Shown here in pieces: positions 2,292 through 4,506 of a stretch of DNA of 4,506 bases. Position numbers and translations under genes: made by a program. The stretch comes from a virus. Taxonomy: Duplodnaviria; Heunggongvirae; Uroviricota; Caudoviricetes. Position 1 is the first letter of the stretch; each line of letters begins with the position of its first letter. The notes beneath the pieces are model-generated. The model ran no database searches, was not told the DNA's origin, and saw nothing but the letters and a program-made list of their open reading frames with translations. The stretch is from the IMG/VR virus record IMGVR_UViG_2585427793_000002, positions 1-4,506 of that record; one strand, written 5' to 3'.

Positions 2292-2474
2292 TCAGTTCTG
2301 CAGACACTGCCGAACACCGTCGACAATTTCACAGACCTGAGACGCGGTATCGAAAAGCTGGCGCGCCTTATCCAGGCTGACGCACCCCACCAATAAAAAA
2401 GGCACCAGTATCGCTACCAGTGCCCGTTTCACCGCCGTTCGCGGCATTCTGTGTGTCCAGTGTTTTCGCGCCAT
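2292..2474 (-). CDS. Putative small lipoprotein (60-aa precursor, ~30-aa mature)
   Basis: N-terminus MARKHWTHRMPRTAVKRALVAILVPFLLVG|C has a basic n-region, hydrophobic core and lipobox L-V-G-C (Cys31). The mature part CVSLDKARQLFDTASQVCEIVDGVRQCLQN has three Cys. The ATG at 2474 is 1 nt after the stop of the upstream 37-codon ORF and preceded by GGTGGTGAT. Confidence 0.55.
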   Translation of the reverse strand: MARKHWTHRMPRTAVKRALVAILVPFLLVGCVSLDKARQLFDTASQVCEIVDGVRQCLQN

Positions 2475-2475
2475 A

Positions 2476-2589
2476 TCACCACCAACGCACAGCCCAAATC
2501 AGAACAGCGACCGCCACAAGGCGAATTGCAAAGGCCGCAGCCCTTGTCAAATCAAGGCTCGCGGGAGTTTCCATTTCAATACCTTTCAT
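2476..2589 (-). CDS. Putative 37-aa membrane mini-protein (MKGIEMETPASLDLTRAAAFAIRLVAVAVLIWAVRWW)
   Basis: Found by hand translation; below the ORF-track size cut-off. ATG at 2589..2587 with GAGG 9 nt upstream; C-terminal hydrophobic helix; TGA stop at 2478..2476 sits 1 nt before the lipoprotein ATG, suggesting translational coupling. The short length makes it uncertain. Confidence 0.3.
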   Translation of the reverse strand: MKGIEMETPASLDLTRAAAFAIRLVAVAVLIWAVRWW

Positions 2590-2721: not shown

Positions 2722-3099
2722 TTATCGCTTCAGCTGAAAGTGAGGTCCGTCTTTCAGCGTTTTCCAGTCCCCGCCCCATTCGATAGCGATCCCCAGCTCT
2801 GCGGCAGCCTGCTTAAATGCCTGTGCGATTTTCTCGTACAGAGGCCACTCCCATGACACCTGACTGCCAATGTAGGCCACAACATCCACCGCATCACCGG
2901 TCAGGTGGCGGCTGTTCATGGTCTGGCTTTTCCCTTCCGCAACCAGCTGTTTCTGGCGATACTTACTGCGCAGGCCTTCCGTAATACCGAAATCAACCTC
3001 CGTCAGCTCCAGCGCACGGCGAACTACAGCAACCAGCTGTGGTTTGACACCCTCCAGATTTTTTTCACTGCGACGGCTGAATCTGAATTTACCCGGCAT
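2722..3099 (-). CDS. Endolysin, L-alanyl-D-glutamate endopeptidase (peptidase M15 family, phage T5 Lys-like)
   Basis: 125 aa from the ATG at 3099 (GAGGTG 5 nt upstream; the ORF-track start at 3105 is a GTG two codons earlier). It carries a Zn-ligand pattern typical of M15 peptidases, SRHLTGDAVD ... WGGDW ... DGPHF, and overall resembles the small T5-type endolysin as I recall it. No signal peptide or SAR domain, consistent with holin-dependent release. It is the last gene of the cassette before the terminator. Confidence 0.85.
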   Translation of the reverse strand: MPGKFRFSRRSEKNLEGVKPQLVAVVRRALELTEVDFGITEGLRSKYRQKQLVAEGKSQTMNSRHLTGDAVDVVAYIGSQVSWEWPLYEKIAQAFKQAAAELGIAIEWGGDWKTLKDGPHFQLKR

Positions 3100-3101
3100 A
3101 T

Positions 3102-3377
3102 TCACCTCAACAATGGAAAGATTTTTGTGACGTTCCCGCGTGCGCGTATCACCAGCACGCAGAACAGCAGATTAAAAAACACTTCCAGCCAGCCCGTTGC
3201 TAACGGGCGACCACACAGATAGCTGAGGGGCGCAAAGGCATACAGCAGCATCAGCAGCCAGGCCAGCCATGACACCAGCGGTTTATGTCTGGAATCACGG
3301 CGACGATAAAAAAAGAGCGTCAGCACGATAACCGTGCATAACGCCACATTCAGCAATCCGGGAAGGTTACTTAACAT
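3102..3377 (-). CDS. Small 3-TM membrane protein of the lysis cassette (putative holin or antiholin), 91 aa
   Basis: ORF-track ORF 3102..3431 trimmed to the internal ATG at 3377..3375 (MLSNLPGLLNVALCTVIVLTLFFY...), which has a strong GGAGGAGG box 5-8 nt upstream; the track start at 3431 would overlap the upstream gene by 65 nt. Three hydrophobic helices and a basic C-terminus (RARGNVTKIFPLLR). Its TGA stop (3104..3102) abuts the endolysin start. Confidence 0.6.
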   Translation of the reverse strand: MLSNLPGLLNVALCTVIVLTLFFYRRRDSRHKPLVSWLAWLLMLLYAFAPLSYLCGRPLATGWLEVFFNLLFCVLVIRARGNVTKIFPLLR

Positions 3378-3759
3378 TGCCGCCTCCTCCACCCCGCAGG
3401 CGGGAGAACACACCGGACACCAGCGATGCAATATCCTGCTGGTGGATGAACGAGAGAATCTTCACCGACACCACCGAGACCAGCACCGCGCAAAGCGCAT
3501 CTGCTGATGTACCGTCATACCCTGTTTTTGATGCAATCCAGGCTGACAGCACACGCGCTCCCAGCACGCCGACAATAAACGACACCAGAAAATGTGCCAC
3601 CACGCGCCAGACTGAAAGTGACTGTGGCATCGTTGCCACAAATAACGCCCCGGCGAACGCGCCAAACACAATCCCGAAATCCATTCCGGTAAACAGCCCG
3701 AATACCGTCGCGCCACCCAGCGCCGCAGCCGTGCCGGAACCGGATAAGGGTTCAGACAT
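3367..3759 (-). CDS. Gly/Ala-rich 4-TM membrane protein, putative holin (130 aa)
   Basis: ATG at 3759 preceded by AGGAGG (rc of 3764..3769). About four hydrophobic helices (TAAALGGATVFGLFTG, FGIVFGAFAGALFVA, VVAHFLVSFIVGVLGARVL, ALCAVLVSVVSVKILSFI) and a Gly-rich charged tail. It is the first gene of a cassette ending in an endolysin, and its 3' end overlaps the next gene by 11 nt. Holin role is inferred from context, not homology. Confidence 0.65.
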   Translation of the reverse strand: MSEPLSGSGTAAALGGATVFGLFTGMDFGIVFGAFAGALFVATMPQSLSVWRVVAHFLVSFIVGVLGARVLSAWIASKTGYDGTSADALCAVLVSVVSVKILSFIHQQDIASLVSGVFSRLRGGGGGNVK

Positions 3760-3815
3760 ACTTCCTCCTGAAAATAAAAAAGGGCCACCAGCGACCCGTA
3801 AAAAAACACCCCGTC

Positions 3816-3837
3816 AAAGGCATCCGCAGATGCCTTT
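3816..3837. other. Perfect hairpin (9-bp stem, 4-nt loop) in the spacer between the small ORF and the holin gene
   Basis: AAAGGCATC (3816..3824) - CGCA - GATGCCTTT (3829..3837). On the - strand RNA the stem is followed by GACGGGGUG and only then U7, so it is not a textbook intrinsic terminator. Confidence 0.45.
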
Positions 3838-3846
3838 TGTGTGATG

Positions 3847-3999
3847 TTATTCAGATTTACGCAGTAAAGGCCGGAGCACGACCAGCGCCATCACCACCAG
3901 CACACCATCTGCCAGCACCGACATCAGTCGTCCGGTGAAATCAACCACCACTACCAGAAACAACAGGATGACAGCCAGCACAAGGCGCGCACTTTTCAC
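3847..3999 (-). CDS. Putative 50-aa two-helix membrane protein (GTG start), translationally coupled to the TerB-like gene
   Basis: Found by hand translation; below the ORF-track size cut-off: (M)KSARLVLAVILLFLVVVVDFTGRLMSVLADGVLVVMALVVLRPLLRKSE. The GTG at 3999..3997 overlaps the upstream TGA stop (GTGA), with GGAG 8 nt upstream. Two hydrophobic helices and a charged C-terminus. No ATG start with a comparable ribosome-binding site. Confidence 0.35.
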   Translation of the reverse strand: MKSARLVLAVILLFLVVVVDFTGRLMSVLADGVLVVMALVVLRPLLRKSE

Positions 4000-4421
4000 A
4001 GGTACTGCTCCAGCGGCAACTGCAGCGCCTGCGCAATTTTCTTCAGTTGCGCTTCTTCTTCCTGAGCGATACCGTCCTGGTCAGCGATATCCAGACACAG
4101 GCACAGCACATTAACTGCATCATCAGTACCGGCAACATCAGCCAGCTGACGAAGAGCTTCGGCATTGGCAGAACGCGGCGACGCTTCATAACGGGCGCGG
4201 ATATTTGCACTCATTTGTGCAATCTCACCGGAGAACGGCGCAAAGGCAGGAAGTGCTGCAATGGTTTTTTCCAGTACCGCGATTTCTTTCGCGTCACAGG
4301 TGCCGTCAGCGTATGCAATGGAGTACGCGCCCCAGACGGTCGCCTCCACTGCGTCACGGTTCTCCATCTTCTTCACTTCGGTAATGGCCTTGCGGGTTTT
4401 CTTTTTGAAAATACCAAACAT
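3996..4421 (-). CDS. TerB-like (tellurite-resistance TerB family) helical protein, 141 aa
   Basis: ATG at 4421 with AAGGA about 9 nt upstream. The N-terminus MFGIFKKK and two 'hydrophobic-x-DG-x(3-5)-acidic' repeats (AYADGTCDAKEIAVLEK and ADQDGIAQEEEAQLKKIAQALQL) follow the pattern I recall for TerB (compare SDGNFDDDEKSAVREIARSLGF in plasmid TerB). Assignment is by pattern recognition only. Confidence 0.7.
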   Translation of the reverse strand: MFGIFKKKTRKAITEVKKMENRDAVEATVWGAYSIAYADGTCDAKEIAVLEKTIAALPAFAPFSGEIAQMSANIRARYEASPRSANAEALRQLADVAGTDDAVNVLCLCLDIADQDGIAQEEEAQLKKIAQALQLPLEQYL

Positions 4422-4506
4422 CGTGACTTTTCCTTTTAGTGGGTGAGCCTGCGCCCGGGGGTGACCAGCCCACAGAGAAAGTCACACTGACCATCCCGTA
4501 AGCTCA

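What the first reader, a model, noticed from the sequence alone, without database searches (positions are those of the whole stretch)
3847..4421. TerB-like protein coupled to an unannotated two-helix membrane mini-protein, inserted as cargo just upstream of the holin
The 141-aa ORF shows the TerB-type pattern: an MxGxFKKK N-terminus and two DG-acidic helical repeats. Its TGA stop overlaps (GTGA) the GTG start of a 50-codon ORF encoding two hydrophobic helices, which the ORF track missed. The pair sits between the unseen Q/late-promoter side and the holin, a classic moron position in lambdoid late operons. The ter operon was historically linked to a phage-inhibition phenotype alongside tellurite and colicin resistance. 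A prophage-borne TerB-like/membrane pair could therefore be a superinfection-exclusion, abortive-infection or lysis-timing module. I do not recognise this arrangement from lambda, P22, phage 21 or phi80.
Basis: partly seen in the sequence, partly recalled or inferred. Interest (0 to 1): 0.55.

Follow-up and report, generated by a model that had tools for sequence, protein, structure and literature searches.

The report
Known phage tciA–tciB cargo cassette
The two genes are real, but they are the already named and annotated tciA–tciB pair of phage P1 (a TerB-family protein plus a tiny membrane partner), a mobile accessory cassette of still-untested function; the only apparently new thing is a conserved folded RNA leader in front of it that many unrelated phage cargo genes share.

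Summary
A 141-aa TerB-family ORF (3996-4421, minus strand) ends in a GTGA overlap with a 50-aa two-helix membrane ORF (3847-3999), just upstream of the holin in a lambdoid late operon. The pair is not new. The proteins are 86% and 47% identical to phage P1 TciA and TciB. The small ORF belongs to Pfam DUF3927 and PHROG 1470, and RefSeq annotates both genes in identical E. coli prophages. The two genes were adjacent in 102 of 103 loci examined. The pair occurs in lambdoid, P1/P7, N4-like, Erwinia jumbo, Pseudomonas and Pantoea phages, often with no holin nearby. Its presence in virulent phages, and its place in lytic-phase operons, argues for a role during lytic growth. That weakens the lysogenic-conversion and holin-timing ideas. 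No experiment defines the function; in P1 the genes are nonessential. My best guess is a membrane-anchored TerB complex that buffers envelope or ion stress. Side finding: a roughly 105-130-nt structured leader pairs CCUUU with the tciA Shine-Dalgarno. Covariation supports the fold, no Rfam family matches it, and it precedes at least 12 unrelated cargo gene families. Only its 3' part lies in the window.

The parts
4419..4506 (-). The 3' two-thirds of a structured leader RNA that ends at the tciA ATG. The window end cuts off its 5' part. The full copy is L001 9720-9848 on the minus strand.
   Evidence: Covariance model R1 matches window 4419-4506 at 99.6 bits, model positions 41-128, truncated at the 5' end. 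RNAalifold pairs CCUUU with the AAAGG Shine-Dalgarno. Pair counts support the fold.
4432..4436 (-). Shine-Dalgarno AAAGG of tciA, 10 nt upstream of the ATG. In the consensus fold it pairs with an upstream CCUUU that lies beyond the window end.
   Evidence: Read from the sequence. The SD helix is paired in 100% of cells across 27 distinct leaders.
3996..4421 (-). tciA: a 141-aa cytoplasmic TerB-family protein.
   Evidence: 86% identical to P1 TciA. Pfam TerB scores above its gathering cut-off. PHROG 632, E = 5e-64. Profile against PDB 2JXU, E = 1.5e-13. AlphaFold2 model with pLDDT 90.2 and six helices. The top Foldseek PDB hit is 2H5N. dN/dS is about 0.05.
3847..3999 (-). tciB: a 50-aa DUF3927 two-helix membrane protein. 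Its GTG start overlaps the tciA TGA stop (GTGA at 3996-3999).
   Evidence: Pfam PF13064, E = 3.6e-13. PHROG 1470, E = 8.6e-23. 47% identical to P1 TciB. Adjacent to tciA in 102 of 103 loci. Alignments A2 and A5. dN/dS is about 0.42.
3816..3836 (-). Hairpin AAAGGCAUC-UGCG-GAUGCCUUU directly after the tciB stop codon.
   Evidence: Fold of the spacer: -29.5 kcal/mol, z = -3.07.
3771..3797 (-). Terminator-like hairpin GGGTCGCTGGTGGCCC followed by TTTTTTATTTT, between tciB and the holin start.
   Evidence: Terminator scan on L001 9098-9083, which equals window 3797-3782; sequence.
3367..3759 (-). Context only: the first holin (Phage_holin_8) of the lysis cassette immediately downstream of the cassette.
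   Evidence: Pfam PF16931, E = 3.3e-23; RefSeq 'putative holin'.

Best explanation
This is the phage tciA-tciB accessory cassette, here carried in the late operon of a lambdoid E. coli prophage.

Shown:
- tciA encodes a soluble, all-helical TerB-family protein.
- tciB encodes a 50-aa DUF3927 hairpin of two transmembrane helices.
- The two genes are translationally coupled through a GTGA overlap and are inherited as a unit across very different phages.
- The cassette is preceded by a structured leader whose consensus fold pairs with the tciA Shine-Dalgarno, and it is followed by terminator-like hairpins.
- In the prophage it lies downstream of Q and two phage tRNA genes.

Inferred:
- The cassette is transcribed with lytic-phase genes: by Q-antiterminated late transcription here, and from the C1-repressed ban operon in P1.
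- TciB has both termini in the cytoplasm, because both ends are basic. It tethers or partners TciA at the inner face of the cytoplasmic membrane, giving a minimal counterpart of the TerB-TerC membrane unit of ter operons.
- During lytic development this complex senses or buffers envelope or divalent-cation/ion stress. That would protect the infected cell from premature membrane failure, for example from pore-forming colicins, superinfecting phage or membrane-triggered abortive responses.

The identity part is near certain. The mechanism is a reasoned guess.
For: Identity:
- 86% and 47% identity to P1 TciA and TciB.
- Pfam TerB and DUF3927 both score above their cut-offs; PHROGs 632 and 1470 match.
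- The TciA profile matches solved TerB 2JXU at E = 1.5e-13 over residues 15-137.
- The AlphaFold2 model has pLDDT 90.2, and the best solved fold match is the TerB-family structure 2H5N (probability 1.00).
- RefSeq annotates both genes.

Unit of inheritance:
- The genes are adjacent in 102 of 103 loci with overlapping junctions.
- The pair is present in lambdoid, P1/P7, N4-like, Erwinia jumbo, Pseudomonas nickie and Pantoea LIET2 phages.
- tciA is under strong purifying selection (dN/dS 0.05).

Lytic-phase role:
- The pair occurs in virulent phages.
- P1 and P7 annotation places it between the C1 operator of Pban and ban.
- TciA peptides were detected in CsCl-purified P1 preparations (PMC9024508).
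- No sigma-70-like promoter was found between the upstream terminator and tciA.

Membrane-partner idea:
- TerB is reported to be membrane-associated and to interact with the integral membrane protein TerC (Alekhina 2011 and Turkovicova 2016, as cited).
- In Vibrio phage BUCT194 the TciA-like gene has no tciB and instead sits directly after phage-borne TerD-TerB-TerC genes.
- TciB keeps two Asp residues (D20, D31) and basic termini in every intact copy.
Against: - No experiment links tciAB to any phenotype.
- In P1 all three tci genes are nonessential by CRISPRi (PMC10695390).
- Nearly half of one subgroup of P1-like plasmids has lost the operon (PMC9603915).
- A direct TciA-TciB contact was not modelled or shown.
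- tciA alleles have been swapped while tciB was kept: P1 versus P7, TciA 31% and TciB 83% identical; SP-076 versus Pollock, 35% and 77%. Any interface must therefore tolerate large TciA divergence, or the proteins may not touch.
- tciB is only weakly constrained (dN/dS 0.42 against 0.6-0.7 for the off-frames).
- Some distant phage TerB genes have no small partner at all (PMC-independent loci PMBT3, D505, Zuri).
- The promoter scan is crude, so lysogen expression is not excluded.
Confidence: 0.55

Rival explanations
1. Superinfection-exclusion or anti-phage module. The TerB/TciB complex at the membrane blocks DNA entry of other phages, or kills the cell when they infect. This would correspond to the phage-inhibition (Phi) phenotype historically linked to ter operons.
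For: Reviews link ter operons to phage inhibition and resistance to pore-forming colicins. TerB domains occur in the experimentally validated Bunzi and Shango defence systems. Virulent phages also encode exclusion proteins, so presence in them is compatible with this idea (general knowledge). The cargo position and presence/absence polymorphism resemble defence genes.
Against: Neither protein matches any PADLOC model at E <= 1. Bunzi and Shango use TerB domains within larger multi-protein systems, not a 141-aa protein with a 50-aa partner. No own promoter was detected, and the cassette lies in lytic-phase operons, so a resting lysogen may not express it. The Phi phenotype of ter operons needs several ter genes that are absent here.
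Confidence: 0.2
2. Lysis-timing regulator. The pair modulates the adjacent holins in an antiholin-like way, or conditions the membrane before holin triggering.
For: In the window and in 55 related loci the pair lies immediately upstream of holin genes. Other lambdoid loci place it before different holin types. TciB is a small two-helix membrane protein.
Against: The same pair occurs far from any lysis gene in P1/P7, N4-like, jumbo, Pseudomonas and Pantoea phages. It sits next to at least three unrelated holin types, so no specific partner holin exists. TciB matches no holin family in Pfam or PHROGs, only DUF3927/TciB. In JLK-2012 a 1.85-kb gene separates the pair from S.
Confidence: 0.07
3. 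Counter-defence or host takeover. The phage TerB acts as a decoy or inhibitor of host Ter/TerB-dependent stress or defence pathways, or reprograms metal homeostasis for phage replication.
For: The pair is carried by virulent phages among early or host-takeover genes. PHROGs files both families under 'moron, auxiliary metabolic gene and host takeover'. A Vibrio phage carries a whole TerD-TerB-TerC set. Rapid tciA allele replacement with tciB retained resembles arms-race turnover.
Against: There is no direct evidence. tciA within a clade is under strong purifying selection (dN/dS 0.05), not diversifying selection. No host target is known.
Confidence: 0.1
4. Lysogenic conversion to tellurite or metal resistance, as the database names imply.
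For: The database names are 'tellurite resistance TerB family protein' and 'tellurite/colicin resistance protein'.
Against: The name comes from homology only. Tellurite resistance constructs in the literature carry terBCDEF or more, and terC, terD and terE are absent from this prophage region. Virulent phages have no use for long-term metal resistance.
Confidence: 0.04

Closest known systems
Phage P1 tciA-tciB(-tciC) operon (P1_gp074-076; named in the 2004 P1 genome annotation)
   Same: TciA is 141 aa in both and 86% identical. TciB is 47% identical, with the same two-helix layout and the same DFT..S.L.DG..WP motifs. The stop and start overlap at the junction. Phage tRNA genes are adjacent. 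The function is known only 'by homology'.
   Different: The window has no tciC, only an 87-nt spacer before the holin. The location is a lambdoid late operon, not the C1-controlled ban operon. P1 lacks the structured leader found here.
TerB of the terZABCDEF tellurite/colicin/phage-inhibition cluster (solved structure 2JXU), working with the membrane protein TerC
   Same: Same domain family and helical fold, the same paired D-G...E motifs, a similar length, and reported membrane association through a membrane partner.
   Different: There is no terC, terD, terE or terZ in the locus. The partner is a 50-aa hairpin, not the multi-pass TerC. Sequence identity to TerB is low. No tellurite phenotype has been tested.
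TerB-domain proteins of the Bunzi and Shango anti-phage systems, and the TerB-like domain of DjlA
   Same: A TerB domain placed at the inner membrane and proposed to survey the membrane. In Bunzi and DjlA the domain is fused to transmembrane helices.
   Different: Those proteins are larger or form multi-component systems (ATPase/helicase, J domain). No PADLOC model matches, and the DjlA model scores 13.9 bits against a cut-off of 162.
For the leader: translational-control leaders that sequester the Shine-Dalgarno, such as the lambda N leader opened by RNase III, folding of the hok mRNA, and RNA thermometers (recalled from general knowledge, not tested here)
   Same: A long imperfect hairpin whose base pairs an anti-SD (CCUUU) with the SD (AAAGG) a fixed 7-10 nt before the start codon.
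   Different: No Rfam family matches, even at E <= 10. The element is portable across at least 12 unrelated genes. It has an extra conserved complementarity between its 5' flank and its apical loop. The trigger that opens it is unknown.

Membership tests
TerB family (Pfam PF05099) | Sequence match to the family model above the curated cut-off | tested here: met
   32.2 bits against a gathering score of 24.4, E = 1.4e-7, two stretches. The family profile matches TerB 2JXU at E = 1.5e-13 over nearly the full length.
TerB family (Pfam PF05099) | All-helical TerB fold | tested here: met
   The AlphaFold2 model has pLDDT 90.2, pTM 0.83 and six helices. The best solved-structure match is 2H5N (PG1108), probability 1.00, TM 0.52-0.57, E = 0.015. 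2JXU itself was not ranked by Foldseek.
TerB family (Pfam PF05099) | Two repeated acidic D-G...E motifs (the presumed metal site; that this defines the family is from general knowledge) | tested here: met
   D39-G40...E46 and D116-G117...E122. G40, E46, G117 and E122 are the only positions at least 90% conserved in 69 homologs. Metal binding itself was not tested.
ter operon (terZABCDEF) system | Co-occurrence with terC, terD, terE and related genes | tested here: not met
   No ter gene other than the TerB-like one lies within 9 kb on either side in L001. The pair travels alone in all the phages examined, except Vibrio phage BUCT194.
DUF3927 / TciB (Pfam PF13064, PHROG 1470) | Sequence match above the cut-off | tested here: met
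   49.7 bits against 25, E = 3.6e-13, residues 4-48. PHROG 1470, E = 8.6e-23. 47% identical to P1 TciB.
DUF3927 / TciB (Pfam PF13064, PHROG 1470) | Encoded directly downstream of, and coupled to, a TciA-type TerB gene | tested here: met
   102 of 103 loci; the junction overlaps (GTGA or TAATG/TGATG) in 99 of the 102 and lies 3-11 nt further downstream in the other 3.
DUF3927 / TciB (Pfam PF13064, PHROG 1470) | Actually translated and inserted in the membrane | not testable with these tools
   The only support is indirect: a GGAG 8 nt upstream of the GTG, only 1 of 102 copies disrupted, and conservation across distant phages.
P1-type tciABC operon | Presence of the third gene, tciC (35 aa) | tested here: not met
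   Only 87 nt separate tciB from the holin, and they hold no ORF. P1 and P7 have tciC.
Moron (autonomous cargo unit of lambdoid phages) | Own terminator downstream | tested here: met
   A terminator-like hairpin plus T-run lies at window 3771-3797, and another lies upstream after tRNA-Arg. These are consensus matches only.
Moron (autonomous cargo unit of lambdoid phages) | Own promoter allowing expression in the lysogen | tested here: inconclusive
   No sigma-70-like site lies between the upstream terminator and tciA in the simple scan. The scan is crude and covers only one promoter type.
Known anti-phage defence systems (PADLOC-DB v2) | Match to any defence-protein model | tested here: not met
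   No family at E <= 1 for either protein.
Holin / antiholin families (for the 50-aa ORF) | Match to a holin family model | tested here: not met
   Pfam and PHROGs return only DUF3927/TciB for it. The true holins downstream hit Phage_holin_8 and Phage_holin_3_7.
Any Rfam RNA family (for the leader) | Covariance-model match | tested here: not met
   Nothing at gathering thresholds, and nothing overlapping L001 9720-9848 even at E <= 10.

The most novel reading that the evidence does not exclude
The structured leader in front of tciA (3' part at window 4419-4506) may belong to an undescribed, portable cis-regulatory RNA class of enterobacterial phages. It is a 72-130-nt hairpin that sequesters the Shine-Dalgarno. 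It carries a second, mutually exclusive pairing between its 5' flank and its apical loop. It sits at a fixed 7-10 nt from the start codon of at least 12 unrelated accessory genes (TciA, KilA-N, Rha, HNH endonuclease, a glycosyltransferase-like protein, a tail-tip-domain protein and others). It is shared between lambdoid prophages and Erwinia/Salmonella jumbo phages. If it is a switch (opened by RNase III, a ligand or metal, temperature, or co-transcriptional kinetics), it would be a common control point for phage cargo genes. Separately, tciAB itself could turn out to be a new minimal membrane-surveillance module.
Probability: 0.4. Interest if true: 0.6.

Novelty: already known. Interest (0 to 1): 0.3.

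Why it matters
The pair is common. DNA similar to this region, at the 28-base-word sensitivity of megablast, is present in 511 of 5,426 complete E. coli genomes. The pair is also in phage P1 and in many virulent phages. After two decades it still has only a homology-derived name, so a clean phenotype would annotate thousands of genes and would clarify what a stand-alone TerB domain does at the membrane. As a discovery it is not new. The leader RNA matters more if it is real: one shared structured element controlling translation of many unrelated cargo genes would give a handle on how phages regulate morons, and a search key for finding them.

Tried and rejected
- tblastn with the 50-aa protein against phage genomes found only 7 records and missed P1 itself. 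I rejected it as a measure of co-occurrence and replaced it with HMM searches of ORFs next to tciA.
- The search for related loci with the diverse alignment A1 failed on genome contigs because no stretch was conserved enough. It was repeated with the closer alignment A3.
- The P1 genome paper (PMC523184) and the Anantharaman-Iyer-Aravind Ter paper (PMC4104200) are not held. Statements about them rest on the P1 record's annotation and on citing papers.
- PADLOC gave no hits. NCBIfam gave only sub-threshold DjlA.
- Foldseek against the PDB ranked 2H5N but not the NMR structure 2JXU. The link to 2JXU rests on the sequence profile.
- My naive 'next ORF' picker chose spurious overlapping frames. 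The neighbour clusters are therefore used only qualitatively.
- The TerB+DUF3927 'fusion' proteins P0316 and P0385 look like frameshift read-through at the overlapping junction. I rejected them as Rosetta-stone evidence.
- The tRNA link is frequent but not obligatory: a tRNA lies within 1 kb upstream in 44 of 101 loci. I did not adopt it as functional.
- I first drew the leader as a pseudoknot. The 0-nt linker between helix a and the anti-SD makes helix a:a' and the full hairpin sterically exclusive, so I treat them as alternative states.
- Single-sequence folding does not favour a:a'. It is 7-14 kcal/mol worse than the MFE. For L001 the MFE does not even reproduce the consensus SD pairing. 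The switch idea is therefore weakly supported.
- I looked in the Pas sRNA preprint for the tciB-holin spacer sequence and found none.
Full report
**1. What is in the window**

All plausible genes lie on the minus strand. In order of transcription they are:
- a 141-aa ORF (3996-4421);
- a 50-aa ORF (3847-3999);
- two holin-family genes (3367-3759, Phage_holin_8; 3102-3431, Phage_holin_3_7);
- an M15 peptidase endolysin (2722-3105);
- several small ORFs;
- a Nu1-type small terminase (594-1139).

DNA 100% identical over window 3700-4506 is found in several E. coli chromosomes. In one of them (L001) the wider order is Q antiterminator, a 237-aa ORF, tRNA-Ile, tRNA-Arg, the pair, holins, endolysin, terminase, portal, capsid. 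This is a lambdoid prophage. The pair occupies the late-operon cargo position where Stx phages carry stx (that comparison is from general knowledge).

**2.

- The 141-aa protein starts MFGIFKKK and has two D-G...E helical motifs.
- Its TGA overlaps the GTG of the 50-codon ORF (GTGA), and a GGAG lies 8 nt upstream of that GTG.
- The small protein has two hydrophobic segments joined by DFTGR.

**3. Identity of the two genes**

The large protein:
- It scores above Pfam's TerB cut-off (32.2 against 24.4 bits).
- It matches PHROG 632 'tellurite resistance' at E = 5e-64.
- It is 86% identical to phage P1 TciA over all 141 residues.
- A profile of eight phage homologs matches the solved Klebsiella TerB (2JXU) at E = 1.5e-13 over residues 15-137.
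- An AlphaFold2 model built on 69 homologs is confident (pLDDT 90.2, pTM 0.83; six helices).
- The best solved-structure match to that model is the TerB-family protein 2H5N.
- G40, E46, G117 and E122, the cores of the two DG...E motifs, are the only positions at least 90% conserved.

The small protein:
- It matches Pfam DUF3927 (E = 3.6e-13) and PHROG 1470 'TciB-like' (E = 8.6e-23).
- It is 47% identical to P1 TciB.

RefSeq annotates both genes in the identical prophages, as 'tellurite resistance TerB family protein' and 'DUF3927 family protein'. The pair is therefore the known tciA-tciB unit. The window lacks P1's third gene, tciC.

**4. The pair is a conserved, mobile two-gene unit**

- I collected 103 loci carrying a TciA relative: annotated phages, IMG/VR contigs and GTDB genomes. 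In 102 of them a DUF3927 ORF follows directly. The exception is a contig that ends inside tciA.
- The junctions are GTGA overlaps (83 loci), TAATG/TGATG (15) or gaps of a few nucleotides.
- The pair occurs in lambdoid phages (window, JLK-2012, LMessi, Evi), P1/P7, N4-like Schitoviridae (FSL SP-076, Pollock), Erwinia/Salmonella jumbo phages, Pseudomonas phage nickie and Pantoea phage LIET2.
- The TciB motif DFT[SG][RK]..S.LADG..WP..K persists where TciA identity falls to 34-42%.
- More distant phage TerB genes lack it. Vibrio phage BUCT194 places the TciA-like gene right after phage-borne TerD-TerB-TerC. PMBT3, D505 and Zuri have no DUF3927 ORF.
- tciA is strongly constrained (median dN/dS 0.05). 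tciB is weakly constrained (0.42, against 0.6-0.7 for the off-frames). One of the 102 copies is disrupted.
- TciA and TciB distances correlate overall (Spearman 0.84), but tciA alleles have been replaced next to an unchanged tciB: P1 versus P7, 31% against 83%; SP-076 versus Pollock, 35% against 77%.
- The family is compact: 171 representatives at 50% clustering.
- DNA matching this region occurs in 511 of 5,426 complete E. coli genomes, and 124 phage records encode a TciA relative.

**5. What is known about function**

Nothing experimental is known.
- A genome-wide CRISPRi screen scored tciA, tciB and tciC as nonessential in P1 (PMC10695390).
- About half of one subgroup of P1-like phage-plasmids has lost the operon, and its role in phage inhibition 'remains unclear' (PMC9603915).
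- TciA peptides were seen in purified P1 preparations, so the protein is made during lytic growth (PMC9024508).
- A 2026 preprint lists the TerB gene among genes typically near the PasA/PasC sRNAs in E. coli prophages, without functional data.
- TerB itself is reported to be membrane-associated and a partner of TerC.
- TerB domains occur in the Bunzi and Shango defence systems and in DjlA.
- Neither protein matches a PADLOC model.

**6. Most likely mechanism**

Three facts constrain the guess.
- The pair is kept by strictly virulent phages. In P1 and P7 it lies between the C1 operator of Pban and ban. Here it lies in the Q-dependent late operon with no detectable promoter of its own. It therefore most likely acts during lytic development.
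- It is not tied to any holin or lysis cassette.
- A soluble TerB domain is always co-translated with a tiny membrane hairpin. That hairpin has basic ends and two conserved Asp residues. Where it is missing in BUCT194, a TerC gene is adjacent.

From these I infer that TciB anchors or partners TciA at the inner face of the membrane, as a minimal counterpart of TerB-TerC. I further infer that the complex buffers or reports envelope or ion stress while the phage replicates. Exclusion or defence, counter-defence, lysis timing and metal resistance are ranked below this for the reasons given under the rival explanations. None of these has been tested.

**7. Side finding: a structured leader**

Conservation:
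- The non-coding stretch directly upstream of tciA is conserved at the DNA level in 51 of 73 distinct upstream regions.
- JLK-2012 shares 83% over 204 nt although its TciA is only 42% identical. Erwinia jumbo phage Caitlin shares 71% over 105 nt.
- In sequenced phages the element occurs once per genome, unannotated, ending at the tciA ATG.

Structure:
- RNAalifold pairs an invariant CCUUU with the AAAGG Shine-Dalgarno at the base of a long hairpin.
- On the unbiased MAFFT alignment my model gives 93.9% paired cells, against 40-51% when partners are slid.
- On a model-fitted alignment of 27 distinct copies, 16 of 26 pairs show changes on both sides. Shuffles give 7.8 +/- 1.4 (0/500) and slid partners give 6-8.
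- On that alignment the covariation score is 0.299, against 0.145 in shuffles and at most 0.109 when slid. All 11 pairs of the upper helix covary. That alignment leans towards the structure, but the slid controls share it.
- The 8 nt just 5' of the anti-SD are perfectly complementary to the apical loop in every tciA leader. There are two compensatory double changes between the E. coli and jumbo-phage versions (CCACAGAG/CUCUGUGG against CCGUAGAG/CUCUACGG; p <= 0.009 per sequence against shuffles).
- This pairing cannot coexist with the full hairpin, because the linker is 0 nt (inference). It is 7-14 kcal/mol less stable in single-sequence folding. Its role is open.

Distribution:
- The model also finds second copies that end at the ATG of other genes.
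- Those contigs hold 119 elements. In 114 of them the start codon lies 7-10 nt after the SD block. The downstream ORFs fall into 12 unrelated clusters.
- The clusters include a Phage_Tail_Tip-domain protein, a GT2-like protein, TciA, HNH_3 and Rha, and KilA-N in L003.
- No Rfam family matches, even at E <= 10.
- P1, P7, the N4-likes, nickie and LIET2 lack the element.

Only the 3' two-thirds of the leader (4419-4506) lies inside the window.

**8. Verdict**

The TerB assignment, the coupling and the cargo position are right. The claims of novelty and of a missing annotation are wrong, because this is the known tciAB pair. The pair should be framed as a lytic-phase module shared with virulent phages, and not as a prophage-specific insertion linked to the holin. 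The leader RNA is the part that may be new.

Noticed in passing
window 4419-4506 (3' part); full copy L001 9720-9848 minus strand; second copies L003 3812-3939(-), L093 9375-9483, L092 7488-7596, L061 7319-7426, L085 8481-8589: A conserved structured leader pairs CCUUU with the Shine-Dalgarno and ends 7-10 nt before the start codon. It precedes tciA in lambdoid and jumbo phages, and it precedes at least 12 unrelated cargo gene families in IMG/VR contigs. Covariation supports the fold, and no Rfam family matches it.
   Followed up: yes
L001 9898-10147; L002 2644-2719 and 4151-4304; L004 3599-3832; L008 546-1198; L110-L113 about 189-264: Phage tRNA genes lie on the same strand within 1 kb upstream of tciA in 44 of 101 loci and are concentrated within 500 bp. 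P1's only three tRNAs all flank tciABC, and the jumbo phages have tRNA-Cys just before the leader. This may be a shared accessory hot-spot or a functional or processing link.
   Followed up: partly
L001 about 9988-10065 (minus strand), between the annotated tRNA-Ile and tRNA-Arg: ARAGORN calls a third tRNA (Arg, anticodon tcg) that RefSeq does not annotate and that Rfam's tRNA model did not report at its gathering score. It may be a degenerate tRNA like argN of Stx phages (that comparison is from memory).
   Followed up: no
window 3760-3846 (minus strand), the spacer between tciB and the holin: The 87-nt spacer folds well (z = -3.07). It has a perfect 9-bp hairpin followed by a terminator-like hairpin and T-run. 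The position and size resemble the roughly 84-nt PasA/PasC sRNAs, which are described as lying directly upstream of prophage holin genes and as processed from a longer transcript. No Pas sequence was available to compare.
   Followed up: partly
L002 versus L006 (P1 versus P7); L005 versus L105 (FSL SP-076 versus Pollock): Within closely related phages tciA has been replaced by an allele only 31-35% identical, while the adjacent tciB stayed 77-83% identical. This implies recombination inside the two-gene unit.
   Followed up: partly
L103 1-2926 (Vibrio phage BUCT194): An N4-like Vibrio phage carries TerD, TerB and TerC/Alx genes followed by a TciA-like TerB gene that has no DUF3927 partner. It is, in effect, a phage-borne mini ter operon.
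   Followed up: no
window 2292-2474 and 2476-2589 (minus strand), downstream of the M15 endolysin: Where spanin genes would be expected there are only two very small ORFs. One is a 37-aa ORF with one hydrophobic helix. The other is a 51-60-aa ORF with a lipobox-like LLVGC (PHROG 7528, function unknown). They could be a minimal spanin pair or something else.
   Followed up: no
proteins P0316 (196 aa) and P0385 (197 aa): Database proteins carry both the TerB and DUF3927 domains in one chain. The junction sequences look like frameshift read-through at the overlapping stop/start, arising either from sequencing errors or as natural variants that would give a membrane-anchored TerB.
   Followed up: partly
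L003 (PP818812.1 'Actinobacillus phage vB_Apl-pPE4'); L091 (Bacillota MAG), L096 (Pseudomonas lundensis), L102 (Kocuria sabuli): These records are assigned to non-enterobacterial hosts, yet they carry DNA or protein 87-100% identical to the E. coli prophage cassette. The pPE4 leader is 100% identical. Host assignment or contamination in these records looks doubtful.
   Followed up: no
window 3847-3999, residue 43 of the small protein: The window's TciB has Arg where most family members have the conserved Trp of the WP motif (LRPLL against LWPLL). Several abundant E. coli clusters share the Arg variant.
   Followed up: no
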